Source: Macrostomum hystrix (lineage: Eukaryota > Animalia > Platyhelminthes). Taken from it: a stretch of DNA of 64,000 nucleotides. Below the pieces are notes generated by a model. The model saw only the letters and a list, made by a program, of their open reading frames with translations, made no database searches and was not told the DNA's origin. Each line of letters begins with the position of its first letter. Positions within the stretch are counted from its first letter, which is position 1. Shown piece by piece: positions 2,528 to 21,279 of this stretch. A program made the position numbers and the translations under genes. The stretch covers positions 14,198,001-14,262,000 of the forward strand of contig CATNEN010000039.1 of the NCBI GenBank assembly GCA_950097015.1. Reading direction: 5' to 3'.

Positions 2528-3033
2528 ATCGAAGAACTACAATCAAGTAGGCAGCATTCACAGACAAAAAAAATTACACACTGCTGCAACCATGAACAAG
2601 GTCAGTAAAAAATCATTAAACTGATGTACCATAAAGAAGTCTATATTCGAAAATGATACACCAGACAAGATCTTTAAGGGCTTCATTCATCGATTCAATC
2701 AAGCCCTGCATTCCACGTCCAAATGTTCTGTGAGGACCAACTTCGCTTGCTTCTGGGAAGAATGGACTGTCATGGCTGCACCTGGATGCCTTGCAGGAGG
2801 AATTGTTAAGGCTGTTAACTTTTCCAACAAACCCGTTTCGGAAGCGGTCTAAAGAAATTAAAGGAATTAATTAAACGAAGCGCAACAATTTCAAACAGGC
2901 AAGAGAGGCTAGGTTTTTAGGGCACTTGACAGTAACATAGCCATGCAGGCACGAGTATCGGCCGATACAAACAAATTCCAATTTTCTAGCTCCTGTACTG
3001 CAGTAAAATACTGAAATAGTTGTTTTGCACATT

Positions 3034-3872
3034 AGTAGTATGCAAGAGGGGGCTTCTAGGACAAAAATAATCGCAGCCTCCATTATCCACAAACCATTAC
3101 TTTTATTATTCCCGAAGAGATCAGGAAAAAAAGGGTCCTCGCCCCTCTAAAAACTCCGTCTCCATATTCTAAATTCTCTACTTTTAATATCCCACATCAG
3201 TTTGTAAGTTGAATATCTAGGACAAAAATTATCGCAGCCTCCTTAATGCACAAACCATTACCTTTCCTGAAGGAACAAGGTTCCCCCGCCAAAAAAATAC
3301 TTTCCAGTTTGTGAACTTGGACAAAAAAAATTATCGCAGCCACTCCCTAAGAGATCATGCACAAAATAGCGAAGCTGCAAAAAGCGTGCCAAGACAATCA
3401 AATTAGCACTAAAATCCCAATCAAGACCCCAAACCTTGGGTGCTCATCCTCCGAAAAAAAATTAAATTCTTATTAAAAATGCTCCCAATCGTCTCTCCAG
3501 GATCTTATTACAAAAGGCATGAGCCTAATTACAAGAGTAAGTACCAATGCAAACAAGAATGCAGCGAGTACATGAAGAAATATTGTCCCAACGTCGATAT
3601 CAATGTCCCTAATATTAATCTAGCAGTTAAGAGTCACTGGTTTCATAAGTATGGAGCAATTATAAAGGACTACGACAGCTACTATAACTTTGCAGAAATC
3701 ATTAAGCAGCTTACATTCTCTCAATTGTCAACGTCAATACAAACTCTTCACCGTTGAAATCAACGCCAACACCATCTTCCGTCTCAAACTGCAGCACAAT
3801 CTCGTGAATCTCCTTATTACTTAGCACAACTCTTTTCACCGGATTTGGTTTCTCTACCAGCATCTGTCCTCC
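3034..3872 (+). repeat. Left TIR of the Polinton (839 bp)
   Basis: Reverse complement of 17577-18415; the match ends after CATCTGTCCTCC. The only mismatches noticed are at 3657, 3660 and 3661. Confidence 0.95.
3479..3757 (+). CDS. TIR-encoded 92-aa hypothetical protein (Cys/Tyr/Lys-rich), left copy
   Basis: ATG at 3479 lies in the same TTAAAAATG context as the other element genes. The ORF track starts it at GTG 3440. Confidence 0.55.
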   Translation: MLPIVSPGSYYKRHEPNYKSKYQCKQECSEYMKKYCPNVDINVPNINLAVKSHWFHKYGAIIKDYDSYYNFAEIIKQLTFSQLSTSIQTLHR

Positions 3873-4082
3873 CGGAACTCCTCCAGAAATCGAAAAGCAA
3901 ACTTAAAAGCTTTCTAAAACATACTGAGTTGGTAGTTCAATGATTCACAAGTATATTTACATAAGATGCAAAGGAGGAAAAAGCTGACACTATGAGTGCG
4001 CAGTGTCATCCGGTTGAGAATTTCCTCCGCGACGTGCGAGCTAGTTGCAAGGCTGGAAATGAATGAAGGTAGAGAAAGAACA

Positions 4083-4323
4083 AGATATTGTATAGACCCA
4101 CACACAATCCAAAATCAATATTATTCGGATCCAGAATAATATTGATTTTCCTCGTGCTCATTTCGTGTACAGCAAATCGTATAGGGCAGAGTTCTTCCAG
4201 ATATTGATATTGTAGACCCTCACACAATCCAAAATCGATATTATTCGGATCCAGAATAATATTGATTTTCTAGCTCCTGCTCATTTCATGTACAGCAAAT
4301 TGCATAGGGCAGAGTTCTTCCAG
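4083..4323. repeat. ~120-bp direct repeat x2, each unit containing a 39-bp near-perfect palindrome
   Basis: AAAATC(A/G)ATATTATTC-GGATCCA-GAATAATATTGATTTT at 4111-4149 and 4231-4269. Confidence 0.9.
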
Positions 4324-4372
4324 GGTTGATATAGATTTATACTTACTGGGTATACGCGCGCGTATTGTGTCT

Positions 4373-5201
4373 TTAATCCTGCTGCATATCCTCGGTTCCA
4401 CCAGCTGCTGCCACATTTGCCGCCCCAGGAATAACAACGTTACCATGAGCACCTTCTGGCATTTGATTGGCTTGCGGAACTGTTGGGTCAGTCCAAATAT
4501 TTGCGTCGCGTTGGAAGCGGTACTCACTTAAAATGAGAGTAGCATTATCCAACAAGAAAGAAACTCGGACTTTACAGTGTTGCAACCGAGGCAGCGATGT
4601 CAGAAGTTCATAGATTTTGAGCTTCTTCTGCACCTCATGTTCCTTAACACCAAAAGTTTCCGCAACCCGCCGATTTGATGCCCGATGTCTGGATTTTTCC
4701 TTCTTATATATAAGCCCCATACAGAAAGCCGCAGCAACAGACTTTCCATCCGCCTGTTGCTCCGTTTGCAAGAGTTCCGTATGGTGCGTACTATAAAAAT
4801 CGTCCGAATCCATTTTGAATTCGGCAACAAAGTTCCTCATTTGTTGATAACTAAGAAGCAAATCTTCATCAGCAAAAAATGATCGGCGAAGTTCGGCAAA
4901 CACCATTTCGGTTCTCATGGCATAGTTGCGATCCTGGACCTCCATGGCCGCTCTTGACCGAATTCGCTGGTTCTCAACTTTTTCATTGAAGAAATGATGA
5001 AGAACTTCTCGAATTCTCTCTGATGCCTGTTCGTTGGCATGCAATCCTTCAACGAGGCGACCGTGGAGATTTTCTAGTTCAGTTGAGTAGAACGTAATTT
5101 TTTGTGGACTAAAAAGAACGATTTAATTAAAAAAAAGATATATTTCAATTCTTACCACAGGATTATCAGGAAGTAAAAATAAATAAATAAACTTACAACA
5201 T
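4373..5201 (-). CDS. Spliced Polinton gene, ~246 aa, with an HTH-like segment; join(5201..5197, 5108..4373)
   Basis: ATG TT|GTAAGT ... 88-nt intron ... CTTTTTAG|T CCA restores the frame (MFPQKITFYSTELENLHGRLVEGLHANEQ...). The frame is open to 5122 with no upstream ATG. SNRRVAETFGVKEHEVQKKL resembles a helix-turn-helix. Confidence 0.75.
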
Positions 5202-5282
5202 GATGAAATCAGCAGCCACAACAGTGGAGTATCGTGCGTGACGAAGAACGTTCGCGGGTGAAATGAGCTGAATTTGCTTGAA

Positions 5283-5741
5283 TCACTCTGCGCTCTCAAC
5301 ACCCAGCTCTTTCAGCAGAACTCCTAGTTCTTTACTTGGAGCATGCAATATAAAGCCAATTCCACCACCACCCACCCCACCAAGCCCCAACCCCAACTTT
5401 GTCTTACCAAAAATAACAGCTTTAACTAGCTTCCGAGCGATCGATTCCCTCCACCCGCTTGAAGCCGCCATATTGTCTAGCATTCTGAGCATTTCTTTGT
5501 CCCAGCGAGTCTTCTCCTCTGGAAAATCCCTATACTTAATATCATGCCACATACAGACAGAGTCTAGCTCGTTCACTGGCTCATGCCCAGGATTTGGATT
5601 ATTGTTTTTATCTAGCTGTATTTCAAGCGGATTCAAAGGCCCGCAATATTTGTAGCCGGGAATTGTCCAGCCTTTGTTTGGATGAGGAAGCTTTTCTACC
5701 AGTCCATGTGAGTCTAAGTTTCCACCAAAGCGTTGCATCAT
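5283..5741 (-). CDS. Parvovirus VP1u-type phospholipase A2
   Basis: Ca-loop motif PGYKYCGPLNP and catalytic helix PVNELDSVCMWHDIKY (HDxxY), followed by DKEML. Confidence 0.9.
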   Translation of the reverse strand: MMQRFGGNLDSHGLVEKLPHPNKGWTIPGYKYCGPLNPLEIQLDKNNNPNPGHEPVNELDSVCMWHDIKYRDFPEEKTRWDKEMLRMLDNMAASSGWRESIARKLVKAVIFGKTKLGLGLGGVGGGGIGFILHAPSKELGVLLKELGVESAE

Positions 5742-5767
5742 TTTTATAAAAAATTAAATAAAAAATA

Positions 5768-6757
5768 ATGACAGATCAGAAACTTCAAAAGCTCTACTAC
5801 AGCGACAAAGGATTCTTTGTAGGAAAAAATGCAGTCACCAAACTCGCGGAACTAAGTAATGAATCAAAACAAACAGTTGAAAGATGGCTCTCTAAGCAAG
5901 CAGTTTACCAAGTCTATTTCCCACCTGTTAAATTTGCAAGACCTCACTTTAACATCTATAAACCTAATGAAGCGCACCAAGCAGATCTTCTGTTTCTCCC
6001 CAACGACTCAGGCTACAAGTATGCTCTCACAGTTATAGACATTGCCTCCAGATATAAGGAAGCGAGACCGCTTAAGACTAAGAAGTCAGAAGCAGTTGCA
6101 GCTGCCCTCCAAGACATTTACAAAAACTCACCGCTCACATACCCCCAAACCTTTATGACTGATCCTGGCAAAGAATTCATGGGAGCAGTCAAATCCCTTA
6201 TGGAAAAGAACAATACGAAAATGCGCTATGGAAGAACTGAGCTCCATAGAGACCAGGCTTTTGTTGAAAGATTCAATCTAACTCTAGCAAAGAGACTTTT
6301 CACAAAGCAGACAGCTGAAGAGCTGAAACTAAAAAGTGGCCAATACTATACCAAGTGGACAGAAAGACTCCCCGCAGTAATAAGTCAACTGAACAATGAA
6401 GTATCTCGAATGACAAACCTGAAACCAAATACTGCCATCAAACAAGACACAGTTGAATCAAAACATCCGATCGCCAATTTCAACTATCCAAAGCTCCCTG
6501 GCGTTTATTCTCCGGAAATTCTTACTAACTCTGAATTCGTTCGCTTCCTTTACTTACCAGGAGAGCTGGAGAAGGACACAAAGAGAAGAGCAACAGACCC
6601 ATACTTTAGTCTTGATGTACATAAGATAAACAGGCATTTCACATCAGCATCCGGCGATTACTATTTTCTATCCCAAGACTTTAATTCAAAAGCCCCCACA
6701 CGATCATTCACAAGGGCTGAGCTTCTAGTGATTCCACATGACACAGAAATAAATTAA
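5768..6757 (+). CDS. Retroviral-like (rve) DDE integrase
   Basis: Motifs HQADLLFL, LTVIDIASRY, TDPGKEF and QAFVERFNLTL; consistent with the 6-bp TSD. Confidence 0.96.
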   Translation: MTDQKLQKLYYSDKGFFVGKNAVTKLAELSNESKQTVERWLSKQAVYQVYFPPVKFARPHFNIYKPNEAHQADLLFLPNDSGYKYALTVIDIASRYKEARPLKTKKSEAVAAALQDIYKNSPLTYPQTFMTDPGKEFMGAVKSLMEKNNTKMRYGRTELHRDQAFVERFNLTLAKRLFTKQTAEELKLKSGQYYTKWTERLPAVISQLNNEVSRMTNLKPNTAIKQDTVESKHPIANFNYPKLPGVYSPEILTNSEFVRFLYLPGELEKDTKRRATDPYFSLDVHKINRHFTSASGDYYFLSQDFNSKAPTRSFTRAELLVIPHDTEIN

Positions 6758-6774
6758 ATTTTTTTTTAAATAAA

Positions 6775-7203
6775 ATGATTGAAACCAGAACCGTGAATAA
6801 AATCAGCAGAATTATCGACTCTAAGAAGCCAGGAGTTGTATCAATTAAAGGTGTCAAAGTCAAAGTAGATCCAATCCAGCATCTGATCCATTGTAACAAT
6901 CAAACGCACAATATCACTGATGAGAAGACAGGTGGGATTCTTCCTTTGCTAACTCTTATCCCCATCATCGCAGGTGCTCTTGGTGCTGCAGGAGGTGTAG
7001 CCGGCGGAGTTGCATCAGCTGTGAAGGCTGGCAATGACAGAGCACACCAACAAGAGATGGAGAAAATCGCTAGAGAAAAAGGAGTCAGAATCGGGGGTAG
7101 TTGTGAATCTGATGAATCAGCTGATGAATCAGTCAGCAAATCAGAAATCGTTAAAGCCATCATGACACTGCATAAAGCAGGATTTACAATACTCCGGATG
7201 TGA
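6775..7203 (+). CDS. Adenovirus pX (Mu precursor)-like core/membrane protein
   Basis: KTGG-ILPLLTLIPIIAGALGAAGGVAGGVASAV closely resembles the adenovirus pX C-terminus as recalled (MRGG-ILPLLIPLIAAAIGAVPGIASVA). Confidence 0.75.
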   Translation: MIETRTVNKISRIIDSKKPGVVSIKGVKVKVDPIQHLIHCNNQTHNITDEKTGGILPLLTLIPIIAGALGAAGGVAGGVASAVKAGNDRAHQQEMEKIAREKGVRIGGSCESDESADESVSKSEIVKAIMTLHKAGFTILRM

Positions 7204-7327
7204 AAACAGAACAGAACAGAATCTGCTCTCATAACTATATTTAGCACTGTTGGTAGTAGTATGCCATACTTTACACTTAACTTGAGGGTGACCACCCTAA
7301 ATTTTTTTTATAAAATTTTCATTAAAA

Positions 7328-10300
7328 ATGCCTAAAGCAAATCCAGAAAAAAAATTTGTCGAATCTTTCTTTCAAAATAATTGTCCTCAAGCTCAATCGT
7401 TTCAACAAAAAAGTCAAGTCCTGCAAGAGTTTTGCAGGCAGAAATTCAATCAAGATCCAGGCTACCTCGGGAGCTATGCAATACAGCAAGAAATTATTAA
7501 TCAGCTTCTGCATTCAGAGCAGTACACACCAGTGAAGAAGCCGGCGACTGAACACCAACAAAAGAGCCGCAGCTTAGTCAATAAGTATGAGACACTCACA
7601 GGTCAAAATGTGTCGAAATACCCACAGAATAAGCAAGAGCAAGAAGATCTAGAACGTACAATCCACCAGGTTGAAGCAGAGCTACAAGTAGAGCTACAAA
7701 CTGAAGACCTTAAATTTGCACAGAGAAAATTCACAGAGTATTATATTGAGTACACAATACAGGAAGACACCACAAATTCCCAATCCGACATTTACGACTT
7801 CAAAGACAGAATTCAATCAGTAATTGATCACACACTGAAGTCACGTAAGACCTTCAAGCTTCAGTTATCATTCAAGATTGAATTTTACATGCCTGCAAAA
7901 CCCAATGAGCGTCTTGAATACTACATGACAACTAAAGCTCTACCCTTTACTCCCACTGACACACAGGATCCCTTTCTTCAAGAGATCAGTAAAAAGATTG
8001 ACGCCTTTACTTCCAGAGGATCAGGTTGGGTTGTCAATGGCATTCAAAAAGCTACAGTAATGATCATGAAATATGACCCTCTCAAAGCTTCATCATATAT
8101 TGAGCTCCCGAAAAAGCTAGCGAGTAAAAAAGCTTGCATCAATGTGCAAAATTGTGACCAATGCTGCGCACTATGGGCCGTTCTGTCTGCAATATTGTAT
8201 GACAAGGATCGAGCCCACCCAGAGAGAATTTCTCATTATCAAGGTTTGTTCCAGCATTATCATCTCATCTGCCATGCTAAAGGAATTTCCTTCAATAGAG
8301 GCGGCTTGGCAATCGATCAAATCCCAAAGCTAGAGGAAGTCTTTAACAATAAAATCAGAATCACAGTCTTTGAATGGAATGAGAAGAGCGAAAAAGTACA
8401 ATTAGTCAGAGCCAGTAAAAACACGCTAGATCCTGAAGGTGGGCGTCGCATAGATGTCGATCTTCTAATCATAGGTGATTTGCGAGAAAATGCCCACTAC
8501 GTTTGGATTAAAGATCTTTCCAGGCTCCTCCACAAGCAAATGAACAATCATCATGAATCGGTAGCAATCTGTCGTCTTTGTCTGAAGCATTATAGTGGAC
8601 CCGATCGTGATGAAAAACTTAAAGAGCATGAACTGACCTGTGAAGATCATCCAACCAACTGCACACTTCCAACGGATAAGCATCTCAGATTTAAGAGTTA
8701 TCACAAGATGGAGAAGCTCCCGTTTATAGTATACGCTGACTTTGAATGCACTATAAACCCTGAAACCAATAAGCATGTCCCAAATTCTGTTGCATATCTC
8801 TTTATTGGAAGAGACTCTTTTATTTGCTCAAACTATTTCTTAGGTGACCAGTGTGTTGAACAATTCATTTACTCGATGATGGAATTACAGAAAAATGTTG
8901 CTGCCATTCAGCCTGTTCCAATAATTATGTCCGATCAAGATGAAATCGACTTCGGATCTGCAACTCATTGTCACATTTGCCGAAAGCTATTAACACCCTG
9001 CGACGTCAAAAACCACACAGTCAGAGACCACGATCACTTCACAGGAAAATTTAGAGGGGCAGCTCATAACACCTGTAATCTGAAACTTCAGAAAAACATC
9101 CGCGACCTTACCATTTTCTTCCATAACGGAAGGGGATATGATTATCACTTATTGGTTGAGAAGCTGGGTATGATACCAGGCATTAAACTAGATTGCATCG
9201 CAGAGAACAAAGAAAAGTTTAAGTGCATTGATATTAAGCGAGATTCAGGCAAGATTAAGATCAAAGATTCATTCCAGTTTCTGGCCGCAAGTCTCGATGC
9301 TTTGAGTAAAAATCTCACCGATGACCAATGTACTTATACCAAGATGCTGGCAGATTCCCTCAATCCTAGAACCCCAGATTCATTTAAGCTTCTTAGAAAG
9401 AAAGGTGTCTACCCTTATGAATGTAATCACGTCTTTGCAGAACCACTACCACCCAAGGACAAGTTCTTTTCAAAGCTAACAAACTCTGGGATTTCTGATG
9501 AAGATTATGAGCATGCTCAGACTGTTTACAAACATTTTAACTGTCGAAACTTTCTTGATTATCACATGCTTTACCTTTGGACTGATGTCTTTCTTCTAGC
9601 TGATGTATTTGAAACCTTTAGAAAGACCTGGTACTCTGCTTATGGTCTCGACCCCGCTCATTATGTGTCTTTGCCTGCTACCAGTTGGGAATCATTGCTT
9701 AAAATGAAATGGGATCAAAATCCCAACTGGTACATCGAGCTGCTTACAGACATAGACATGTACAACTTTATAGATTCATCTAAGAGAGGTGGCATCTCTA
9801 TTTGTGTCCATAGGTATGCAAAGGCGAACAATCCGTATCTAGAAGACAATGATAAAGAAAAGCCTTCAAACTACATCATTTATCTGGATGCCAACAACCT
9901 CTATGGTTGGGCTATGAGCCAAGATTTACCTGTTAGAGATTTTAGGTGGCTAGATACTTATAAACTCGACTTTTCAATACCTGCGATCTATGAAGTTGAT
10001 GTTGAAATCCCATGGGAACTTCACGACTATTTCTCTGACTTTGCCCCCTTCCCTGAGAACATTAACTGTCCAAAGATAATCCAGTACAATGGAAGCTGGC
10101 AGCTATCTGAAAAAGAAAAAGAGCGTGTGAAGAAATTGACACAAAATCTCATGAACAAGACACGCTATAAAATCCACTTCAAACTGTTGCGGTATTTTAT
10201 CTCCCTAGGCTGTAGGGTCACGAAAGTTCACAGAGCTCTCGCATTCACAGAAGAAGCGTGGATGAAGCCATACATAGAAAAAAACACCCAGTTTAGAACT

Positions 10301-11131
10301 AAAGCAACAAACAGCTTTGACAAGGACCTGTTCAAGCTTGCAAACAACTCTGTCTATGGCAAGACCCTAGAAAACGAACGCAACCGCACGAACCTGAAGC
10401 TCGTTACCTGTTATGAACCTGGTATCATTCAGACAAGTTTATCAAAGCCCACTTTCAAAGAGCTTCATATCTTTAATGATTACTTGGGTGCCATACTGTT
10501 CTATAAGACTAAAGTTACCCTATGCAAGCCCATATTTACAGGTGTGACTGTACTCGATGAGTCGAAGCGTCTGATGTATAAATTCTTCTATGACATGAAG
10601 CGACAATACGGCGAACAACTGAAACTTCTATATACTGACACAGACTCCCTAATTCTAAACATACAGACTGAGGATGTCTATCAGGACATGTTGAATCAAA
10701 AACATCTGTATGACCTATCCGAATATCCAGAGTCCTTCAAGACTTTGAAAGGCGATCAAGTACGCGACACTGGAAATCAAAAAGTTGTAGGAAAAATGAA
10801 GGATGAAACGGCTGGCACCCTCATTACAGAGTTTATCGGTTTGAGGGCAAAGTCCTATTTTGTAAAAAGTTGTAAGTCTACCATTAAAAAATCAAAAGGA
10901 ATCCCAAAACATGTTGTTAAAAACGATCTCCATGAAGCTTCATACAAGGACGCATTGATCAATAATAAAAGTACTACTCATGAATTTATGAAACTGCAGT
11001 CTAAGAACCACAACATTCACACAATTCAACAGAAGAAGATAGGCCTCTCAGGTGCCGATAACAAACGACATATCTTTGATGACAACATTAACAGCCTACC
11101 ATTTGGACACTATAGATTAAATAATTTGTAA
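7328..11131 (+). CDS. polB: Protein-primed family B DNA polymerase, 1267 aa
   Basis: ExoI YADFEC, ExoII HNGRGYD, polymerase motifs YLDANNLYG, KLANNSVYGK and YTDTDS. Also a C2HC zinc finger, an EndoVII-like insert (CHICRK...VRDHDHFTGKFRGAAHNTCN) and an OTU-like segment (DQCCALWAV...HYVWI). Confidence 0.98.
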   Translation: MPKANPEKKFVESFFQNNCPQAQSFQQKSQVLQEFCRQKFNQDPGYLGSYAIQQEIINQLLHSEQYTPVKKPATEHQQKSRSLVNKYETLTGQNVSKYPQNKQEQEDLERTIHQVEAELQVELQTEDLKFAQRKFTEYYIEYTIQEDTTNSQSDIYDFKDRIQSVIDHTLKSRKTFKLQLSFKIEFYMPAKPNERLEYYMTTKALPFTPTDTQDPFLQEISKKIDAFTSRGSGWVVNGIQKATVMIMKYDPLKASSYIELPKKLASKKACINVQNCDQCCALWAVLSAILYDKDRAHPERISHYQGLFQHYHLICHAKGISFNRGGLAIDQIPKLEEVFNNKIRITVFEWNEKSEKVQLVRASKNTLDPEGGRRIDVDLLIIGDLRENAHYVWIKDLSRLLHKQMNNHHESVAICRLCLKHYSGPDRDEKLKEHELTCEDHPTNCTLPTDKHLRFKSYHKMEKLPFIVYADFECTINPETNKHVPNSVAYLFIGRDSFICSNYFLGDQCVEQFIYSMMELQKNVAAIQPVPIIMSDQDEIDFGSATHCHICRKLLTPCDVKNHTVRDHDHFTGKFRGAAHNTCNLKLQKNIRDLTIFFHNGRGYDYHLLVEKLGMIPGIKLDCIAENKEKFKCIDIKRDSGKIKIKDSFQFLAASLDALSKNLTDDQCTYTKMLADSLNPRTPDSFKLLRKKGVYPYECNHVFAEPLPPKDKFFSKLTNSGISDEDYEHAQTVYKHFNCRNFLDYHMLYLWTDVFLLADVFETFRKTWYSAYGLDPAHYVSLPATSWESLLKMKWDQNPNWYIELLTDIDMYNFIDSSKRGGISICVHRYAKANNPYLEDNDKEKPSNYIIYLDANNLYGWAMSQDLPVRDFRWLDTYKLDFSIPAIYEVDVEIPWELHDYFSDFAPFPENINCPKIIQYNGSWQLSEKEKERVKKLTQNLMNKTRYKIHFKLLRYFISLGCRVTKVHRALAFTEEAWMKPYIEKNTQFRTKATNSFDKDLFKLANNSVYGKTLENERNRTNLKLVTCYEPGIIQTSLSKPTFKELHIFNDYLGAILFYKTKVTLCKPIFTGVTVLDESKRLMYKFFYDMKRQYGEQLKLLYTDTDSLILNIQTEDVYQDMLNQKHLYDLSEYPESFKTLKGDQVRDTGNQKVVGKMKDETAGTLITEFIGLRAKSYFVKSCKSTIKKSKGIPKHVVKNDLHEASYKDALINNKSTTHEFMKLQSKNHNIHTIQQKKIGLSGADNKRHIFDDNINSLPFGHYRLNNL

Positions 11132-11163
11132 CAAAATTTGTTACAAAAAATTTGTAAAAAAAA

Positions 11164-11574
11164 ATGACAACCAATATTTATTTAGAAGAGCTAGCTCAGC
11201 AATTAAAAATCCCAAACTTCAGAGGCGTCTTTATGAAGGATACACTGCCAGAATCCCCACTAGAAAAAGAATGTGGAATCATGAACTTTGACCCTGCAGA
11301 AAAGCCAGGTTCTCATTGGGTTTGTTGGGTAATTGATCCCAACCGTAAACACAAGTACTATTACTTTGATAGCTATGGTACGGCCGTGCCTGAAGTGCTG
11401 AGAAATTATATGACTCATATGAGACATAAAATGAGACATAAAATATACCGCTCAGATTTTATACTCCAGGGTATTAACAGTGATGTTTGTGGCGAGCTAT
11501 GTATGACCGTTTTGTATGCAATGACCCACACCCGAAAAAGTTACAAAGAAATCATTTTAGGGCTGAAAAAATAA
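11164..11574 (+). CDS. Adenain-like cysteine maturation protease
   Basis: Catalytic set His (GSHWV), Asp (YFDSYG), Gln and Cys (LQGINSDVCGELC). Confidence 0.93.
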   Translation: MTTNIYLEELAQQLKIPNFRGVFMKDTLPESPLEKECGIMNFDPAEKPGSHWVCWVIDPNRKHKYYYFDSYGTAVPEVLRNYMTHMRHKMRHKIYRSDFILQGINSDVCGELCMTVLYAMTHTRKSYKEIILGLKK

Positions 11575-11599
11575 TTTTTTTAGGTCCCGTTAGGTCCTG

Positions 11600-12223
11600 T
11601 TAGGTCTTGTTCATTTTCGCTACTTTCGCGACATGCTGTTTGAACACATTCTCCAGATCATTTCTTAGCTGGCTCATTTCATCAATGGTATTTAGATTAA
11701 GCCTAACTCGTTGCTCATAGAGGTCTTGAATGTTTTTAAACTCATCCTCTGAAATGAACTTGTCTTCAATCGCCTTTGAGATGTACCCGATGATAGAGCT
11801 TTGTACTGATTTCTCATTTGTTTGCTTCGCATGTAGATGCTTTAGCTTTTGTCGTCTGTTCCGTGATAGTACCCCTGTAACTGCTGAAATCAGACCACAT
11901 GCGGCACCAGCAGCTCCGAGTGGAATGGCGATTGGCGCAGTGATTACTGGAATTGTTGAAACAGCAGCTGCTGATCCCGATAGAACAGATGCAGATCCAA
12001 GAAACATATTAAGGTAATCGATGACCTTGCACTCTCTATTATAGCGCTTCAGTTTCTTGGTATTATGATCAATTTGCCGTTTAATATCATCTCGCATCTT
12101 TTGAATCTCCACCAATCTGAATTGCTGCGAGTTACAAGTGAAAGTTGGGTAAAGGGGTTGTTGTGGGCTTGGGTTGTTTGGAGGCGCACTAGGTTCATAT
12201 AGTGAGTTTATTTTTTCAGACAT
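11600..12223 (-). CDS. Hypothetical membrane-associated protein with a central small-residue hydrophobic hairpin and an N-terminal PSAP motif
   Basis: 207-aa ORF with a TAAATG start. The hydrophobic stretch MFLGSASVLSGSAAAVSTIPVITAPIAIPLGAAGAACGLISAVTGVL is flanked by coiled coils. Confidence 0.8.
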   Translation of the reverse strand: MSEKINSLYEPSAPPNNPSPQQPLYPTFTCNSQQFRLVEIQKMRDDIKRQIDHNTKKLKRYNRECKVIDYLNMFLGSASVLSGSAAAVSTIPVITAPIAIPLGAAGAACGLISAVTGVLSRNRRQKLKHLHAKQTNEKSVQSSIIGYISKAIEDKFISEDEFKNIQDLYEQRVRLNLNTIDEMSQLRNDLENVFKQHVAKVAKMNKT

Positions 12224-12254
12224 TTATTGAACGAAAAAAAATTATATAAATTTT

Positions 12255-12983
12255 TTATGACCTTTCTCGCAAATCTGTTGCACGCCTTGCCGCCTCCCTT
12301 GATGCCTCTTCTGATGGTCCATCAGATACTCTTGCTTCTTCAATGTCAATGTCTGGCAGATTGTGCAGTCTCTCTAGTCGGCCGAGTCTTCTTTTCGTTT
12401 TCCCCCAGTCGTTGTATATCCTATTCAAATACTCAGTGTGTCTTGTTACGTTTAGCCCCATGGTTCTTAGTGTTTCCTTTGTTTCATTTGCTAGTCTCTG
12501 AAGAGCTGTTATATCTGACTCTGCTGCTGTGAGTCGCGAACTCAATCTATCATGCACTGTGCTTGATCTTAGCATAAAGGCTTCTAAATTTCGAACTTTA
12601 TTTGAATTTTCTGTTACTCTTTCTTCCACCAAGTTTGCTCGATTATTAACGGCAGTTCTCAGAGTGGCGATGTCTGATCTCAGAGTGGCGATGTCTGATC
12701 TCAGAGTGGGTATCGCTGCAACAAGAGTATCCCGATCATGAACAAACTGTACATATAGCATGTCAATCTCTTCCTTCCGTTTTGCTACGCTCAACCGCAG
12801 GTCTTCCATGTTTATTTGTTGTTGGTGTGTTGCCCGCTCTAGGGCTTTCAAGCGATCTTTATTGAGTTTGATTTCTGGAATTTTTTCGTCAACATTTATA
12901 TAACGCCTGTCAAGGTAAGAAACTTGAGCACTAGTGAGTGTGCTTCCGCGATCCAACGATTCACCTGCAAAATTAATAGACAT
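12255..12983 (-). CDS. Coiled-coil protein, 242 aa (fibre- or tape-like; function unknown)
   Basis: Likely ATG at 12983 in TTAAAAAAATG context (MSINFAGESL). Heptad repeats include a 21-bp duplication (LRSDIAT x2). Confidence 0.75.
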   Translation of the reverse strand: MSINFAGESLDRGSTLTSAQVSYLDRRYINVDEKIPEIKLNKDRLKALERATHQQQINMEDLRLSVAKRKEEIDMLYVQFVHDRDTLVAAIPTLRSDIATLRSDIATLRTAVNNRANLVEERVTENSNKVRNLEAFMLRSSTVHDRLSSRLTAAESDITALQRLANETKETLRTMGLNVTRHTEYLNRIYNDWGKTKRRLGRLERLHNLPDIDIEEARVSDGPSEEASREAARRATDLRERS

Positions 12984-13000
12984 TTTTTTAATAACAAAAT

Positions 13001-13801
13001 TTAAATTACAGTTCTTTTTTCTTTGTTGATCATCACAAACTGGTAAGGTTGATTCCACTTTTCATAGCAAAGATTAACGAATTCCTCCTGTGAAATCTTT
13101 CTGTTGGAGTTTTTTGTTGGATTTACAAAATGGGCAGGCGCAATGACCTCATTGTAAAATCTTTTTAGCCTGTCCTGTGGAATTGTTGGAAACAGGAGGA
13201 TCAGATTGCAGTTCCCGCGAATTGTTTTGTTCGGGAGCTCGAACCAGTTCTGGGCAATGTAAATCACGTTACAATTGTTGTGCCGTCCTCTTGTAAAATA
13301 GTTTTCTATCTGCTTCTGTGGGCCTGTCATGCAATCATCAAAGACGATCAAATGTTTTCTCCCCTTTTCTAGCTCATCTGGTTGGGGTAGAAGTTTGGTC
13401 TTAGGATCAACCTGCGGATCTCCATATGTGAACACTTTAATGTTCTGCCATTTTTCATTGTCTTTGAGGTGCTTTGCAAATTCGGCAGCTACAATTTCTG
13501 GGTTACTGGGAAGGCTCTTTTGGTTATTAAAACATTGAATAATGTGCTCTTTGTGCAGTCTGTTTTGCAGTCCAGAGATCAACATTTTATACTCATCTTG
13601 ATACAGGGTGGGAGAGTAGATGTGCAGAGTGTCATAGTCGATAAAGCCAGGTCTAAGAAGCATGTTAAAGACTCTGAATGTTTTACCTGAACCTGACGAA
13701 CCAACAACAATGCATCTGAAGTGACTCGGGATTGACTCATGATGAGAAAACTTAATCTGATTACGTGTCCAGTGAGGATTGAAGTCGTTTGAAAAGTCCA
13801 T
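13001..13801 (-). CDS. A32/FtsK-like genome-packaging ATPase
   Basis: Walker A GSSGSGKT, Walker B LIVFDD, and TRGRHNNCNVIYIAQ. Confidence 0.96.
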   Translation of the reverse strand: MDFSNDFNPHWTRNQIKFSHHESIPSHFRCIVVGSSGSGKTFRVFNMLLRPGFIDYDTLHIYSPTLYQDEYKMLISGLQNRLHKEHIIQCFNNQKSLPSNPEIVAAEFAKHLKDNEKWQNIKVFTYGDPQVDPKTKLLPQPDELEKGRKHLIVFDDCMTGPQKQIENYFTRGRHNNCNVIYIAQNWFELPNKTIRGNCNLILLFPTIPQDRLKRFYNEVIAPAHFVNPTKNSNRKISQEEFVNLCYEKWNQPYQFVMINKEKRTVI

Positions 13802-13845
13802 TTTTCTATGATGAAAAAAAAATTAAAAAAGAGTAAATCATTTAT

Positions 13846-13972
13846 AAGATGTGTCTAGGACTTAGATGTGTCTAGGACTTAGATGTGTCTATTTGGGACT
13901 TAGATGTGTCTATTTGGGACTTAGATGTGTCTATTTGGGACTAGTCTTGTACCCTTACATGTCTTGTACCCT
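13846..13972. repeat. Short intergenic tandem repeat (16-21-bp units) in the Polinton
   Basis: AGATGTGTCTA(TTTG)GGACTT x5, followed by GTCTTGTACCCT x2. Confidence 0.85.
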
Positions 13973-13985
13973 CGAAAAGCACCCT

Positions 13986-14387
13986 TTAGTCAAATTTGAA
14001 ACCACTTCCTTTTTTAATGCTAGCTATGCTAGCTCTCATCTTCTCGTAGATTGCAGGGTCCACACTGTCTGGATTCGGGGCCAGCGGAGCCAGCGGAGCC
14101 AGCGGAGCCAATGGTGGCTGAATATCTTGTGTTACAGTATCCTTTATCTTTTTAGCCGCAGTGACAACGCTTCCCACAGATTCAGCCACGTTCTTAATAT
14201 TATCTTTGTTCTCACTAATGACTTTAAAGACCCGAGCACCCTGTGCAATTATATCAGCAAGACCATTCCCGGAGCGTTCTTTCCTCGGATAGTGGCCTGC
14301 CGGGAAAAGTCCGGATCCACGCTTAATTAGATTAAGTTCCTCCTTGTCATAGTATTTGTCCACGTCTTTTTCGAAAATAATCGGCAT
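13986..14387 (-). CDS. Small putative virion core protein with three GxG protease sites and an amphipathic helix
   Basis: KRGSG-L, RSGNG-LADIIAQGARVFKVI and KKGSG-F; AATAAAAATG start context. Confidence 0.75.
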   Translation of the reverse strand: MPIIFEKDVDKYYDKEELNLIKRGSGLFPAGHYPRKERSGNGLADIIAQGARVFKVISENKDNIKNVAESVGSVVTAAKKIKDTVTQDIQPPLAPLAPLAPLAPNPDSVDPAIYEKMRASIASIKKGSGFKFD

Positions 14388-14404
14388 TTTTATTAGGGAA
14401 GAAA

Positions 14405-15586
14405 TTATTTTTTGTTAAAACGTGAAAGCAGAAGCTCTCTTGCCCGTTTGTCGATATACTTCTTTTCCATCATTTTGTCCAGGATGTTGACAAATTCTTT
14501 TCTATTTTCGTCTTTCATGCCAGTCTTTGCAGCTCCAAGAAGAACAGCCACTCGCTTATAGATGTCAGAAATTCCTTTTCCTTGAAATGATTGGTCGGCA
14601 GAGGACTGGTCGGTGGAGGACTGGGGTGAACTCTCAACTGCTCTTTGTTGTGGTGTGAACACTCTTGCTTTGATTTTATTCATTTGAGCTGGGGAGAAAT
14701 TTTCTAGTTGTTGCCAGGCATCTGGGTGATCATTTTTATATTTAGCTACTTGAGTCGGATCTGCATTTTCAAGGGCACTGAGTATGTCTTCGGGTTTGAT
14801 TGTTTGTTGCTGCTGTGGCGGTTGCTGCTGGGGCGGTTGCTGCTGGGGCGGTTGCTGCTGTGGCGGTTGCTGTTCTAGATATTTTATGGCATCTTCTTGA
14901 TCTGGCAAACCAAACCATTGTTTAAAATACTTGTACTTTTTGAATCTAGTCAGGATGACACCGTTGTCATGCATCATTTTCAGAACTTGTGGGTCCTTTA
15001 GTATTTCTATATCTCTAGCAAGAGCAAAAGTTACTAGATCTCTGTAGTTCTTTAGTTGCTTGTCCGAAATTTTCTCTTGGTTTTTAGTCATAAATGTCAG
15101 TAATGTTTCTGTGAAAATTATGCTTTTAGTTTCTGAGCCTTTGACAACAGAAATATGGTTCTTATTTATGTCGATATAATATTCCACTGGTTCATTATAA
15201 ATTTTTTTTCTCCACATACTTATTCCAAATACATATTTCCCATCATGTTCTGCGCGTTCTACTGGTCCAAAAAAGTTATCTGTCACTTTTAGTTGTGACT
15301 GTTGTGGGACTTGGACTTGCGGATCTGCAGATTGTTGTATCTGCGGTGCTTCTGGAATTTTGCCCAAAGCCTTTTGCACCTGGGTTTCCTGTGTGTCGTC
15401 AATAGTTTCTTTGACTTGATCAATATTTTTCTTAGCTTCTCCATACCCGGGTTTATGAAACTCTGTGGCTGCTTGGACAAACTCATTGTAGGATTGTTGC
15501 TCCTTATTGATTAGCCCGGTAACTCTCTTTTCTGCTTGTGCTAGCTTCTCCAATTCAGATATTTGGTGCGCATTTTTTCGCTTCAT
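14405..15586 (-). CDS. Polinton hypothetical (core-like) protein, 393 aa, with a QQQPP repeat
   Basis: Long intact ORF. The C-terminal QGKG...KRVAVLLGAAKTG...EFVNILDKM resembles a motif I recall from Maverick accessory ORFs. Confidence 0.75.
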   Translation of the reverse strand: MKRKNAHQISELEKLAQAEKRVTGLINKEQQSYNEFVQAATEFHKPGYGEAKKNIDQVKETIDDTQETQVQKALGKIPEAPQIQQSADPQVQVPQQSQLKVTDNFFGPVERAEHDGKYVFGISMWRKKIYNEPVEYYIDINKNHISVVKGSETKSIIFTETLLTFMTKNQEKISDKQLKNYRDLVTFALARDIEILKDPQVLKMMHDNGVILTRFKKYKYFKQWFGLPDQEDAIKYLEQQPPQQQPPQQQPPQQQPPQQQQTIKPEDILSALENADPTQVAKYKNDHPDAWQQLENFSPAQMNKIKARVFTPQQRAVESSPQSSTDQSSADQSFQGKGISDIYKRVAVLLGAAKTGMKDENRKEFVNILDKMMEKKYIDKRARELLLSRFNKK

Positions 15587-15615
15587 TTTTTATTTTATTT
15601 TTTTTAGTTTAAAAA

Positions 15616-16902
15616 ATGAACGACCCACTGACACCAGTTTTCTACAAAATTAACAAGCCTATTTTGAGTGATGATAGCACAATCAAAGCGACTCAAGTAA
15701 GAGTTCCCAGTCAGGAAAATCAGAATGAAACTAATCTTGGTCCTGGTCAAACACTGACATTCACCTACAATGGATGTTCGTCTCTGGTTAGTGTGCACAG
15801 TCTTAAGAGCGGTTTCCATATGACATTTCAATTCAAGACAAAGGGAGGTGCGGATGCAGCTCATGCTAACGTTGAAAAGCATGATGCAGATGTGGCTCTG
15901 ATCAGTAACTTTTGGGCGTACATGTTCAAGGAGTTTAGTGTATCGAATGGGAGCACAGAGTTGGAGCGAATCGCCAACTTTGGAGTTGTCTATGACGCTC
16001 ATTGTTTGATCGAGAATCCAGATTTTATTCAGTTGGGGAGTGGTGCGGGTTTCATTGCAGATGAAAAAGAAGGAGATATCAATGACAGTGGCTATAAAAA
16101 GAGGAAGAAGAGATACAACTATGCGTTGCAAGGTGCTGATGATGCTGCTAAGAACCCGCTGTATCGGACTGTTGATGTATTCGTACCACTGAGATTCATG
16201 AGTGGATTCTGTAATACATTTAATCGACTGACTAGTAACTTCAGCTACACCTTTAAGATGACTAGAGATGATCGCAGTAGAGTGTTGTGGACTGGGGCGG
16301 ACCACACTAGGATGGAAGTGAAGCTAACCGGAATCGAGCTGTATTTGGAAGTCATTGAGCCAAAGACCGCACTAAAAGCAGATTATCTCAAGGCAATAGA
16401 GAAGGACATTGATGTCGCCTACACGGCCTACATGTGTCGAGATGAGCGAAACGAAACCAGAACAAACATCTGCATTAAAGAGGGATCATGCAGCAATCCA
16501 AGGTATATTATTATTAACATGAGAAACCCAAATAACATTATACGCTACATGCATGGAGATGTGCGGTCTATTCAGCATGAAATCAGTGATAATCTTTACC
16601 CTGCACTGCCACAAAATGGAAATTTCAGTCAGAACAAGATTAGCAAATTTTACAGCGAGTTGGTCGACTTGGCTGTGAAAGAGAACAATGGAATTGCTAT
16701 CACTGCTCTTCAATATGGAACTCTTTATCCGATGTTTGGCGCCGATGTGTCTGCCAGACAAATGCCTACTGATAACAGCCCTGTGAATATCGTGACTAAC
16801 ATTGAGAGGACTGCCGCAACTGCTGTTGACCTGTATATTATCTATGCATTTGAGAGGAAGGTGAAGCTTAACATGATCAACAATTCATCCAGTAAAGTTT
16901 AA
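15616..16902 (+). CDS. Major capsid protein (double jelly-roll, Polinton PY)
   Basis: 428 aa and beta-strand-rich (FKEFSVSNGSTELERI, VFVPLRFMSGFC, PRYIIIN, YPMFGADVS); adjacent to the penton gene. Confidence 0.88.
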   Translation: MNDPLTPVFYKINKPILSDDSTIKATQVRVPSQENQNETNLGPGQTLTFTYNGCSSLVSVHSLKSGFHMTFQFKTKGGADAAHANVEKHDADVALISNFWAYMFKEFSVSNGSTELERIANFGVVYDAHCLIENPDFIQLGSGAGFIADEKEGDINDSGYKKRKKRYNYALQGADDAAKNPLYRTVDVFVPLRFMSGFCNTFNRLTSNFSYTFKMTRDDRSRVLWTGADHTRMEVKLTGIELYLEVIEPKTALKADYLKAIEKDIDVAYTAYMCRDERNETRTNICIKEGSCSNPRYIIINMRNPNNIIRYMHGDVRSIQHEISDNLYPALPQNGNFSQNKISKFYSELVDLAVKENNGIAITALQYGTLYPMFGADVSARQMPTDNSPVNIVTNIERTAATAVDLYIIYAFERKVKLNMINNSSSKV

Positions 16903-16925
16903 ATAATTTTTTTTTCGTGAAAAAA

Positions 16926-17738
16926 ATGGAAGCGATTGCTGAAATACTAAATAATATTCTTTCTCACTCTAAGGAGAGCATCCCTATTACAATAACAGGG
17001 CGAATTAATGACCAAAGCGGCATTTTTGTTGAGAAATTAGAGCAGGCGATTCGCCTGGATCCAGGTGCTAATTACCATGTCTATCTTAACGAATTCACTG
17101 GTTGGTCAAACGTTCCCAATGTGACAGCAGCAAATAATAAGTTTCATTACAAATGGAAAGGTGTAGCAGCAGAAGCTGTGGTATTCCCTGTAAGCACACA
17201 GGGCGTGGACACCTATAATTACTTTCTAGAAAACGTCTTTACTAAAAGAGGCCATTTTGAAACACCCAATGCGAGTAAGCCAGAGAAGAAACTGTTCCCT
17301 GTCAAACTATCCTATGATCTCACTGTAATGAGAGTGGTCATGCAAGTTCACAAAGAAGCGGAGGTTGAATTTAGAGATGACACTTGGTATAAGGAATTGG
17401 GATTCGAGAAGAAAGTGTATAAGGCAGAATCCGGGGAAAGCGGTCTGTTCTTAGCACCCAATATCGCAGACATTGTAAAGGGTTTGAATATTCTAATCAG
17501 AAGTAATCTCAGTCTTGCTTGGGTATTTAAGGGGAAGCGAACGAATATTTTGTACAACATCTCTAACTCCGTTGCTGGAGGACAGATGCTGGTAGAGAAA
17601 CCAAATCCGGTGAAAAGAGTTGTGCTAAGTAATAAGGAGATTCACGAGATTGTGCTGCAGTTTGAGACGGAAGATGGTGTTGGCGTTGATTTCAACGGTG
17701 AAGAGTTTGTATTGACGTTGACAATTGAGAGAATGTAA
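16926..17738 (+). CDS. Minor capsid protein (penton, Polinton PX)
   Basis: SNVPNVTAANNKF, IRSNL...ILYNI...GQMLVEKP...IHEIVLQFETEDGVGVDFNGE matches the Polinton penton pattern. ATG at 16926 follows an A-run. Confidence 0.9.
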   Translation: MEAIAEILNNILSHSKESIPITITGRINDQSGIFVEKLEQAIRLDPGANYHVYLNEFTGWSNVPNVTAANNKFHYKWKGVAAEAVVFPVSTQGVDTYNYFLENVFTKRGHFETPNASKPEKKLFPVKLSYDLTVMRVVMQVHKEAEVEFRDDTWYKELGFEKKVYKAESGESGLFLAPNIADIVKGLNILIRSNLSLAWVFKGKRTNILYNISNSVAGGQMLVEKPNPVKRVVLSNKEIHEIVLQFETEDGVGVDFNGEEFVLTLTIERM

Positions 17739-18415
17739 GCTGCTTAATGATTTCTGCAAAGTTATAGTAGCTGTCGTAGTCCTTTATGGTTACTCCATAC
17801 TTATGAAACCAGTGACTCTTAACTGCTAGATTAATATTAGGGACATTGATATCGACGTTGGGACAATATTTCTTCATGTACTCGCTGCATTCTTGTTTGC
17901 ATTGGTACTTACTCTTGTAATTAGGCTCATGCCTTTTGTAATAAGATCCTGGAGAGACGATTGGGAGCATTTTTAATAAGAATTTAATTTTTTTTCGGAG
18001 GATGAGCACCCAAGGTTTGGGGTCTTGATTGGGATTTTAGTGCTAATTTGATTGTCTTGGCACGCTTTTTGCAGCTTCGCTATTTTGTGCATGATCTCTT
18101 AGGGAGTGGCTGCGATAATTTTTTTTGTCCAAGTTCACAAACTGGAAAGTATTTTTTTGGCGGGGGAACCTTGTTCCTTCAGGAAAGGTAATGGTTTGTG
18201 CATTAAGGAGGCTGCGATAATTTTTGTCCTAGATATTCAACTTACAAACTGATGTGGGATATTAAAAGTAGAGAATTTAGAATATGGAGACGGAGTTTTT
18301 AGAGGGGCGAGGACCCTTTTTTTCCTGATCTCTTCGGGAATAATAAAAGTAATGGTTTGTGGATAATGGAGGCTGCGATTATTTTTGTCCTAGAAGCCCC
18401 CTCTTGCATACTACT
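17577..18415 (-). repeat. Right TIR of the Polinton (839 bp)
   Basis: Reverse complement of 3034-3872; includes the last ~54 codons of the minor capsid gene. Confidence 0.95.
17692..17970 (-). CDS. TIR-encoded 92-aa hypothetical protein, right copy (YGVTIK versus YGAIIK on the left)
   Basis: Mirror of 3479-3757; overlaps the minor capsid 3' end convergently by 47 nt. Confidence 0.55.
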   Translation of the reverse strand: MLPIVSPGSYYKRHEPNYKSKYQCKQECSEYMKKYCPNVDINVPNINLAVKSHWFHKYGVTIKDYDSYYNFAEIIKQLTFSQLSTSIQTLHR

Positions 18416-18957
18416 CACATTAAACACTCGTCCGCGTACAGAGATATTTATTTATTCTGCAGACTTGAAAATGCAACCTTTTTATTGTCTTTTCAATAGT
18501 AGATTAAGAAAGAAACATGCAGCTTAATGCTGCCAGTGCGTTAGCTGCGTAAACATGCTTGCTGTTTAAAAATTTATTCATATAAGAGTGTTTATGTTAG
18601 AAGCGTATAGTTGTGTTTTATGCGAAACAACAGAGAAAAAAAACAACTAAAAATTCATGTTTCTGCGTTCTAATGCATCAGTTTATATACTCGTACTACT
18701 AGAGTATATTAGTTCTGCTGTTATTGTTTGTTATGAATGTTTCTGATACAGTTATATAAGTAAATCAAATTGGTTAAAAACGAACTGTCCTTGGAACAGA
18801 AAACACGCTAAGCAAATTTAGCAATGTTCACTGAAGCAACTATAGCTTTTTGCAAATGAATTCAGCCTATCTGCAAAACCCTTCAGCCAGCCAGGGCCAG
18901 CCTTTGCACACAAGTCAATTAAATTTTTAGTTTTAGTTTTAAATTTGTTCTCAATTC

Positions 18958-21000: not shown

Positions 21001-21279
21001 AGTATGCTATCTATAGTTTCTATTTGAGCACGCCAAATTGAGCTCAGAAGTGTCTCCATTCTCAGGTTCAACCTGGTGCCGGCAGCCTTCATCTACGCTG
21101 ATCAGCTAATCCAGCTAGCCACCGACCTGCCCAGCAAAAAGCTGCTCGGTTTTGGCGAGACTGTGAAGCCCCGCTTGCTAATCCAACTGGACAAATTTCG
21201 AACCTGGGCACTCTTTGCCCGAGATGAACCTGTGTTTAATGTGAGGCAAATCGGCATTCAAATTAAAGCTTGTACCGAT

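What the first reader, a model, noticed from the sequence alone, without database searches (positions are those of the whole stretch)
3034..18415. Intact, very recently integrated Polinton virus, with its empty sites visible in the same window
Seen: exact termini, a CACATT TSD, ~14 ORFs without stops or frameshifts, and two paralogous uninserted sites (35086, 51254). Known: this gene set (pPolB, rve integrase, adenain, ATPase, double jelly-roll MCP, penton) defines virion-competent Polintons/adintoviruses. Inference: it inserted after the near-identical host duplication, so it may still be an active, probably undescribed invertebrate virus lineage.
Basis: partly seen in the sequence, partly recalled or inferred. 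Interest (0 to 1): 0.85.

Follow-up and report, generated by a model that had tools for sequence, protein, structure and literature searches.

The report
Young intact Polinton in a flatworm
A complete 15.4 kb virus-like transposon (Polinton) with unbroken polymerase, integrase and capsid genes sits in one of three near-identical host repeats of what is likely a Macrostomum flatworm; it likely jumped in recently and is predicted, not shown, to make particles, so it is a clean new example of a well-known kind.

Summary
Window 3034-18415 is a 15,382-bp Polinton/Maverick: 845-nt terminal inverted repeats (outer 623 nt identical), AGTAGT..ACTACT ends, a CACATT target-site duplication, and exact empty sites at 35086 and 51254. 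It has 14 distinct genes without stops or frameshifts: protein-primed PolB, DD35E integrase, protease, packaging ATPase, double jelly-roll capsid protein, a likely penton, PLA2 and pX. The host is likely a Macrostomum flatworm (flanking GH31 exon 81% identical to M. lignano). The empty sites lie in a tandem array of about 15.6-kb units; the flanks differ by 2 of 1,048 nt, so the insertion is young. Public runs hold a near-identical family: one run shows the same end at another flank, and depth suggests roughly 17 copies in another. Particles, expression and free linear DNA were not shown. Novelty is modest: intact Polintons are common, and 78 integrase-linked polymerases of M. lignano are already tabulated in a published supplement. 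Small extras: a variable accessory gene, predicted to be spliced, and an A/T-rich start signal shared by all other genes. Verdict: new member of a known kind, interest 0.3.

The parts
3028..3033 (+). left copy of the 6-bp target-site duplication CACATT
3034..3878 (+). left terminal inverted repeat (845 nt), begins AGTAGT; holds ORF92 and an antisense copy of the last 56 codons of the penton gene
3479..3757 (+). 92-aa ORF inside the left TIR, unknown function, carries the element's A/T-rich start signal
   Evidence: no Pfam or PHROG hit
4084..4323 (.). two copies of a 120-nt unit in the variable accessory region
4373..5201 (-). accessory gene of about 245 aa, predicted to be spliced (main exon 5108-4373; candidate intron 5196-5109 and ATG mini-exon 5201-5197); absent from at least one related copy
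   Evidence: frame open 59 codons upstream of the first ATG; homolog P0201 at 57% aligns from residue 11 of the extended frame; X2 contig joins 4376 to 5181; splice sites read from the sequence, not shown by RNA
5283..5741 (-). parvovirus-type phospholipase A2, 152 aa
   Evidence: PF08398 E 1e-14; GYKYCGP and HD motifs; relatives in 8 of 30 related loci
5768..6757 (+). retroviral-type integrase, 329 aa, D73-D132-E167 (DD35E)
   Evidence: PF00665 E 2.2e-9; motif positions
6775..7203 (+). pX/mu-like core protein, 142 aa
   Evidence: PF05829 E 1.2e-5, at the curated cut-off
7328..11131 (+). [quoted passage not shown]
   Evidence: 28,643 hits, best listed 35-44% identity; catalytic residues shared with 57-60 of 60 relatives; PF02945 below cut-off
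11164..11574 (+). adenain-like maturation protease, 136 aa (H51, D69, Q102, C109)
   Evidence: PF00770 E 6.7e-6
11600..12223 (-). 207-aa ORF with a central hydrophobic segment; candidate for the membrane-active accessory class (GasderminX-like is a recalled lead, not shown)
   Evidence: unnamed Atlas clusters at 0.94-0.95; no family passes its cut-off
12255..12983 (-). 242-aa ORF, likely coiled coil
   Evidence: only weak hits to coiled-coil families, none at cut-off
13001..13801 (-). A32/FtsK-type packaging ATPase, 266 aa
   Evidence: PF04665 E 2.1e-6; Walker A/B and RGRH motifs; relatives in 17 of 30 loci
13986..14387 (-). 133-aa ORF, unknown function, has the start signal
14405..15586 (-). 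393-aa ORF, unknown function, has the start signal
15616..16902 (+). double jelly-roll major capsid protein, 428 aa
   Evidence: PF21738 E 9.4e-5, below cut-off; model (pLDDT 54) matches Sputnik, PBCV-1 and iridovirus capsid proteins, E down to 2.6e-11
16926..17738 (+). likely penton (minor capsid protein), 270 aa; its 3' end lies inside the right TIR
   Evidence: low-confidence model (pLDDT 35), six best hits all mavirus penton, E 1e-3 to 3.5e-3; relatives in 6 of 30 loci
17571..18415 (-). right terminal inverted repeat, ends ACTACT; holds the second ORF92 copy (17970-17692)
18416..18421 (+). right copy of the target-site duplication
35086..35091 (+). empty site 1: single CACATT in host unit B
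51254..51259 (+). empty site 2: single CACATT in host unit C
18903..35572 (+). host tandem unit: 5' half of a sucrase-isomaltase-like GH31 gene with minisatellite-rich introns, then the stretch with the insertion site
35573..51740 (+). second full host tandem unit; the unit boundary falls inside the inverted repeat of a small transposon remnant (51676-52709)

Best explanation
This is an intact, capsid-encoding Polinton (Maverick) that likely integrated recently into one unit of a tandem host array in what is likely a Macrostomum flatworm, and it is predicted to spread by self-synthesis and, untested, by particles. Shown: ends, TSD, empty sites, unbroken genes with catalytic residues, a near-identical family in public runs, and one sister end at another flank. 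Inferred from known Polinton and adenovirus-lineage biology: (1) the DD35E integrase joined the AGTAGT/ACTACT ends to a 6-nt staggered cut, which made the TSD; (2) an excised linear copy is replicated from its ends by the protein-primed polymerase, which would keep the arms identical and explains a TIR that has taken in the penton gene's 3' end; (3) capsid protein, penton, ATPase, protease and pX would build a non-enveloped icosahedral particle, with PLA2 for membrane entry; (4) the shared A/T-rich signal before 14 ATGs would drive the element's own gene expression, while the accessory gene is an optional passenger.
For: TIR, TSD and exact empty sites. Unique DNA next to the site differs by 2 of 506 nt on the left and 0 of 542 on the right between the filled unit and unit B; B and C are identical over 987 nt. 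Arm divergence is under 0.48% (95% bound from 0 of 623). Core genes. Eight runs from 2 studies hold 62-66% of the sampled words (one may be the assembly's source). In one search, contigs of X1, X2 and X3 tile the laid part, mostly 95-100% alike. X3 has the terminus at 3034 joined to 38 unrelated letters, which is a second insertion site. In X2 the main element contigs have depth 1216-1379, the host-flank contig 234, and 8 of the 15 listed joints 69-85; read roughly, that is about 3 flank copies and about 17 element copies. The start signal marks 13 ORFs of 92 aa or more among 14 hits in 558 ATGs (a relaxed rule adds the integrase), against 1 hit in 1,327 host ATGs and 0 such ORFs in 100 shuffles.
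Against: No particle, free end or transcript was seen. Depth of summed or single contigs is not a copy number (the tool's own caveat). None of the listed contigs spans the filled junction; the lists were cut (319 loose ends and 2,591 pieces not shown). This copy differs from the main X1-X3 contigs by two in-frame indels, one codon in the polymerase near 10088 and four codons in the protease near 11419; their effect is unknown. The penton call rests on a poor model. Planarian Polintons are piRNA-silenced (PMC8532177), so intact need not mean active.
Confidence: 0.75

Rival explanations
1. Same element, but it is silent or moves only inside cells: the capsid genes are intact because the copy is young, and no infectious particle is made in this host.
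For: Particles had not been observed for Mavericks/Polintons in PMC8097293 and PMC10748475. Polintons are piRNA targets in planarians. This copy has two in-frame indels relative to other runs. Related copies carry deletions (joints), as transposon families do.
Against: Capsid relatives at 66-78% identity keep a full frame (7 of 8 hits), which implies long selection on the capsid gene. The whole morphogenesis set is present.
Confidence: 0.3
2. The empty sites are alleles, not older paralogs. Either the element entered one allele and unequal crossing-over then built the array from filled and empty alleles, or the assembler joined haplotypes in tandem.
For: Units are 99-99.9% alike in unique blocks. 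B and C are closer to each other (3 of 2,398 nt) than the filled unit is to B (17 of 1,953). M. lignano assemblies hold much redundant sequence (PMC5730564).
Against: The units differ in the copy number of nearly every minisatellite and share one breakpoint inside a transposon end. The X2 flank depth is about three times the modal joint depth. The insertion is young under this reading too.
Confidence: 0.15
3. Misassembly: a free or foreign viral contig was stitched into the host scaffold.
For: No read-level evidence for the filled junction could be obtained. The X2 host-flank contig runs past 3034 with letters unlike the element and has 2 differences, the number that separates the filled unit from B and C, so X2 may lack this insertion.
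Against: A stitching error would not make a perfect 6-bp duplication exactly at both element ends with single-copy empty sites. The family is in several runs under organism labels A and B, and X2 holds both the element and the host flank. Absence in X2 would fit an insertion polymorphism, and contig cleaning can also remove such a junction.
Confidence: 0.03

Closest known systems
Polintons/Mavericks with intact coding capacity (Barreat and Katzourakis 2021, PMC8097293; passages seen)
   Same: (AGT)2//(ACT)2 ends, 6-bp TSD, TIRs within 46-1,447 bp, length within 12.7-24.6 kb, pPolB, integrase, ATPase, protease, major and minor capsid genes, and an accessory region beside the core.
   Different: Invertebrate host; different gene order; PLA2 and pX genes present; PW, PZ and PM not identified; one accessory gene predicted to hold an intron, whereas none was seen in intact vertebrate elements.
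Eupolintoviridae (formerly Adintoviridae), Beta-type polymerase class (Starrett et al. 2021, PMC8502044, parts 1-3 of 6 read; renaming in PMC12451622, passages)
   Same: Animal host, adenain, rve integrase, FtsK-type ATPase, hexon- and penton-like genes, and a polymerase without a PF03175 match, as described for the Beta class.
   Different: It carries a PLA2, described there as typical of Alpha-class virion modules, and it is separate from the pX gene rather than fused. GasderminX and the OTU domain were not demonstrated. No comparison with the exemplar viruses could be run.
Macrostomum lignano integrase-linked pPolB loci in Jeong et al. 2023 (PMC10748475, Supplementary Tables 2 and 3)
   Same: Likely the same host genus. 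The table lists 748 loci in 8 of 73 flatworm genomes, about 78 of them in the M. lignano assembly NIVC01 (156 accession occurrences, two per row). In 4 of the 30 rows shown, the integrase's outer end lies 1.52-1.63 kb upstream of the polymerase start, against 1.56 kb here.
   Different: Those loci are table rows, not described elements, and the paper places them in Group 2. The spacing match is only a lead; their sequences were not compared with this one.
Unnamed Polinton-like contigs in IMG/VR (L001, L005, L006)
   Same: Polymerase 36-37% identical. L001 has relatives of 7 of the 14 genes, including PLA2, penton and capsid. L005 has an AGTAGT-ended inverted repeat.
   Different: Gene order differs. 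No relative of ORF92, the accessory gene, pX, ORF207, ORF242, ORF133 or ORF393 in any of the 30 loci.

Membership tests
Polinton/Maverick | [quoted passage not shown] | tested here: met
   Exo I-III and Pol A-C catalytic residues shared with 57-60 of 60 relatives; 2 of the 20 best relatives hit PF03175
Polinton/Maverick | retroviral-type integrase | tested here: met
   PF00665 above cut-off; DD35E
Polinton/Maverick | TIRs of 100-1,500 bp, length 13-25 kb, 5-8-bp TSD, (AGT)2//(ACT)2 ends | tested here: met
   845 nt, 15,382 bp, 6 bp; criteria
Polinton/Maverick | packaging ATPase and adenain-like protease | tested here: met
   PF04665 and PF00770 above cut-off
Polinton/Maverick | double jelly-roll major capsid protein | tested here: met
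   fold search E 2.6e-11 to virophage and NCLDV capsid proteins on a pLDDT-54 model; Pfam hit below cut-off
Polinton/Maverick | minor capsid protein (penton) | tested here: inconclusive
   best fold hits are mavirus penton at E 1e-3 on a pLDDT-35 model; 20-22% relatives in 6 of 30 loci
Vertebrate Mavericks (intact set) | PW, PZ and PM genes in the two-module order | not tested
   no reference sequences were at hand; ORF207, ORF133 and ORF393 remain unassigned
Eupolintoviridae, Beta class | divergent polymerase outside PF03175 | tested here: inconclusive
   no PF03175 hit for this protein nor for 18 of 20 relatives; the phage hits expected for Beta polymerases were not found; no exemplar comparison
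Eupolintoviridae, Beta class | N-terminal OTU-like domain of the polymerase | not tested
Eupolintoviridae, Beta class | GasderminX in the virion module | tested here: inconclusive
   ORF207 matches unnamed Atlas clusters only
Eupolintoviridae, Alpha class | PLA2X, a PLA2 fused to a pX-like domain | tested here: not met
   PLA2 and pX are separate ORFs on opposite strands
Eupolintoviridae | placement in trees with the ICTV exemplar viruses | not testable with these tools
   the tree holds only the 30 best hits, two of them labelled
Virus in the strict sense | infectious particles or free linear genomes | not testable with these tools
   only contigs were offered

The most novel reading that the evidence does not exclude
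This family is a live, particle-forming DNA virus of Macrostomum flatworms. It is inserting now, moves between host species (near-identical under two organism labels, 90-99% alike under a third), and swaps an intron-bearing accessory gene in and out of a slot beside its left TIR. It would then be a culturable-animal system in which Polinton virions could be seen for the first time.
Probability: 0.2. Interest if true: 0.7.

Novelty: new member of a known kind. Interest (0 to 1): 0.3.

Why it matters
Whether animal Polintons form virions was still open in the papers read. A young family, likely multi-copy, in a genus with laboratory models is a fair place to look, and the empty sites in the same array give a built-in PCR and dating control. 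Many other animals carry intact Polintons, so this locus is one good candidate among many, not a unique key. It also adds a first anatomical description for a flatworm lineage that I found only as table rows.

Tried and rejected
No whole genome is held, so sister copies could not be counted directly. Expression: no RNA holder listed; this is no evidence either way. X3 has no cover at 5116-5202, which fits the predicted intron or plain low depth; not used. Scans for close relatives found nothing: capsid protein in viral contigs and metagenome contigs, polymerase alone in viral contigs, terminal motif in metagenome contigs, polymerase in phages. PDB sequence searches gave nothing for the polymerase, the capsid profile or the accessory gene, and only weak endonuclease VII hits for the polymerase profile. 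The endonuclease VII-like motif was considered as a novelty and rejected: 18 of the 20 best relatives have it. The accessory gene has no family and one homolog; host-gene capture is neither shown nor excluded. Codon positions of 23 coding variant places, taken from the 40 rows shown of 589, were 13 third, 7 first and 3 second (8 of 11 third in the accessory gene); the sample is small and selected, so it is a hint only. The idea that the host repeat is rDNA or a tRNA array was rejected. The polymerase tree (30 best hits, FastTree, midpoint root) puts it on a long branch with unnamed P0031 (support 0.99) and says nothing on host or group. Literature: Macrostomum+Maverick (2 papers), Macrostomum+Polinton, Polinton+flatworm+capsid, Polinton+Maverick+Platyhelminthes and Polinton+Schmidtea listed no description of this family. 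Term searches were blank in the held supplement of PMC8502044 (one file of about 4 million characters, possibly cut), in PMC5730564 and in PMC11410931. The supplements of bioRxiv 2025.04.19.649669, which reports Orthopolintovirales insertions in Rhabditophora, were not seen and may list this element. Earlier findings of the scan gave nothing on this locus.
Full report
Observation. The element runs from 3034 to 18415 (15,382 bp). Its arms are 845-nt inverted repeats with 5 mismatches; the outer 623 nt are identical. It begins AGTAGT, ends ACTACT, and is flanked by CACATT on both sides. The joined flanks with one CACATT match exactly at two places, giving empty junctions at 35086 and 51254.

Gene content. 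Fifteen frames (14 distinct genes) fill 91% of the DNA between the arms. Pfam names PLA2, rve integrase, pX, adenain and the A32 ATPase at or above cut-off, and the capsid protein below it. The 1267-aa polymerase has no Pfam polymerase hit, but it finds 28,643 relatives, the best 150 at 35-44% identity. Its exonuclease and polymerase catalytic residues are shared with 57-60 of the 60 best; the roles of these motifs are recalled from established knowledge. Of the 10 best hits looked up, two clusters bear names, from Biomphalaria and Onthophagus. A capsid model (pLDDT 54) matches virophage, PBCV-1 and iridovirus double jelly-roll proteins at E down to 2.6e-11. The 270-aa ORF after it gave a poor model whose six best hits are mavirus penton; I call it a likely penton. 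In 30 related IMG/VR loci, relatives were found of the integrase in 18, ATPase 17, protease 15, PLA2 8, penton 6 and capsid 2; the other seven genes had none.

First, a T-tract/A-tract signal directly before ATG marks 13 ORFs of 92 aa or more among 14 hits in 558 ATGs; a relaxed rule adds the integrase. The host part gives 1 hit in 1,327 ATGs, and 100 shuffles give no hit with such an ORF. The rule was drawn from these same starts, so it describes them rather than tests them. Second, the one gene without the signal (4373-5201, minus strand) has its frame open 59 codons above the first ATG, up to a polypyrimidine-AG, and its single homolog aligns into that extension. I infer an intron and an ATG mini-exon; no RNA shows it. 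A contig of run X2 joins 4376 to 5181 and so lacks this gene: it is an optional passenger. The right arm also includes the last 56 codons of the penton gene.

Host and context. The flanking gene is a sucrase-isomaltase-like GH31. One exon is 81% identical to a Macrostomum lignano protein and at most 51% to the other 11 hits, so the host is likely a Macrostomum other than M. lignano, or this is a paralog. The window holds two full tandem units (18903-35572, 35573-51740) and the tail of a third, which carries the element. Each full unit has only residues 70-775 of the 1719-aa homolog, and its introns are minisatellite arrays of varying length. The unit boundary lies inside the inverted repeat of a small transposon remnant. 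Next to the site, the filled unit differs from unit B by 2 of 506 and 0 of 542 nt; over all shared unique blocks the figure is 17 of 1,953. The insertion is therefore no older than a split of about 0.2-0.9%, whichever order of duplication and insertion is true.

Family in public data. Eight runs from 2 studies under two coded organism labels hold 62-66% of the sampled words; one may be the assembly's source. Four runs were laid on 2540-13780, all as contigs. X1, X2 and X3 tile the element mostly at 95-100%; X12 (a third label) covers it patchily, mostly at 90-99%. X3 shows the terminus joined to another flank. In X2 the host flank is one contig of depth 234 that passes 3034 with letters unlike the element, the main element contigs have depth 1216-1379, and 8 of 15 listed joints have depth 69-85. 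Read roughly, that means 3 flank copies and about 17 element copies, perhaps without this insertion; contig depth is not a true copy number, and contig cleaning can drop a junction. This copy differs from the main X1-X3 contigs by two in-frame indels (polymerase near 10088, protease near 11419). Capsid relatives at 66-78% (7 hits) and 43% (1 hit) lie on short unnamed contigs.

Mechanism. Shown: the integration marks and an intact coding set. Inferred: integrase-made TSD, protein-primed self-synthesis from the ends, and a particle built from capsid protein, penton, pX, ATPase and protease, with PLA2 for entry. I put 0.75 on the whole account. The chief rival is a silent or purely intracellular copy (0.3); allelic empty sites (0.15) and misassembly (0.03) follow.

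Comparison with what is known. It meets the published Polinton criteria (PMC8097293, passages; PMC10748475, passages and sections 8-9), the penton being the one weak item. It works like an eupolintovirus (adintovirus) with a Beta-like polymerase and an Alpha-like PLA2. Starrett et al. describe mixing of modules between the two classes (PMC8502044, parts 1-3 of 6); genus membership could not be tested. Flatworm Polintons are on record: 748 loci in 8 of 73 genomes, about 78 in the M. lignano assembly (supplement rows; prefix checked in PMC5730564), piRNA-silenced Polintons in planarians (PMC8532177, passages), and Orthopolintovirales insertions in Rhabditophora (bioRxiv 2025.04.19.649669, passages and section 10). 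Searches listed no description of this family. One search (19 of 22 titles and abstract starts) listed no report of virions from an animal Polinton; the library lacks most subscription papers.

Verdict. A real, intact and young Polinton; a new member of a known kind; interest 0.3. The boldest open reading, a live virus moving among Macrostomum species, gets probability 0.2 and would deserve 0.7.

Noticed in passing
window 19711-27779 and 36512-43486: Two tandem copies of only the 5' half (residues 70-775 of a 1719-aa homolog) of a sucrase-isomaltase-like GH31 gene; the 3' half is not in the window. They may be truncated duplicates, or the insertion site may lie in a very large intron.
   Followed up: partly
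window 792-50753: At least twelve different minisatellites (periods 17-62 nt) fill the introns and spacers of each host unit, and their copy numbers differ between units that are otherwise 99% alike.
   Followed up: partly
window 28346-28894 and 43982-44515 (-): Cysteine-rich frame with a hydrophobic C-terminus, resembling a GPI-anchored surface protein (recalled resemblance; no Pfam hit). The two copies differ more than the rest of the unit (block at 97.4% with gaps).
   Followed up: no
window 51676-52709: About 1 kb element with 106-nt inverted repeats and a helix-turn-helix remnant, likely a Tc1/mariner derivative; only its first 65 nt are repeated at 18838-18902 and 35508-35572, marking the array's breakpoint.
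   Followed up: partly
window 53321-54917 and 60420-63124: Two older inverted-repeat elements; the first holds an HTH_32/paired-like transposase fragment at 54119-54598.
   Followed up: no
window 59572-59644 (-): Marginal Rfam tRNA match (29.5 bits) not called by ARAGORN; possibly a tRNA-derived repeat.
   Followed up: no
L005:1-233 and 15615-15847: In this IMG/VR contig an AGTAGT-ended inverted repeat starts at 234, and a further perfect 233-nt inverted pair lies outside it, as if a Polinton sat in the centre of another inverted repeat.
   Followed up: no
window 11165-12289: In run X1 mean depth over the protease-to-ORF207 stretch is about 24, against 70-110 over the integrase and most of the polymerase; some copies there may lack or diverge in this part. 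Depth cannot rank parts, so this is only a lead.
   Followed up: no
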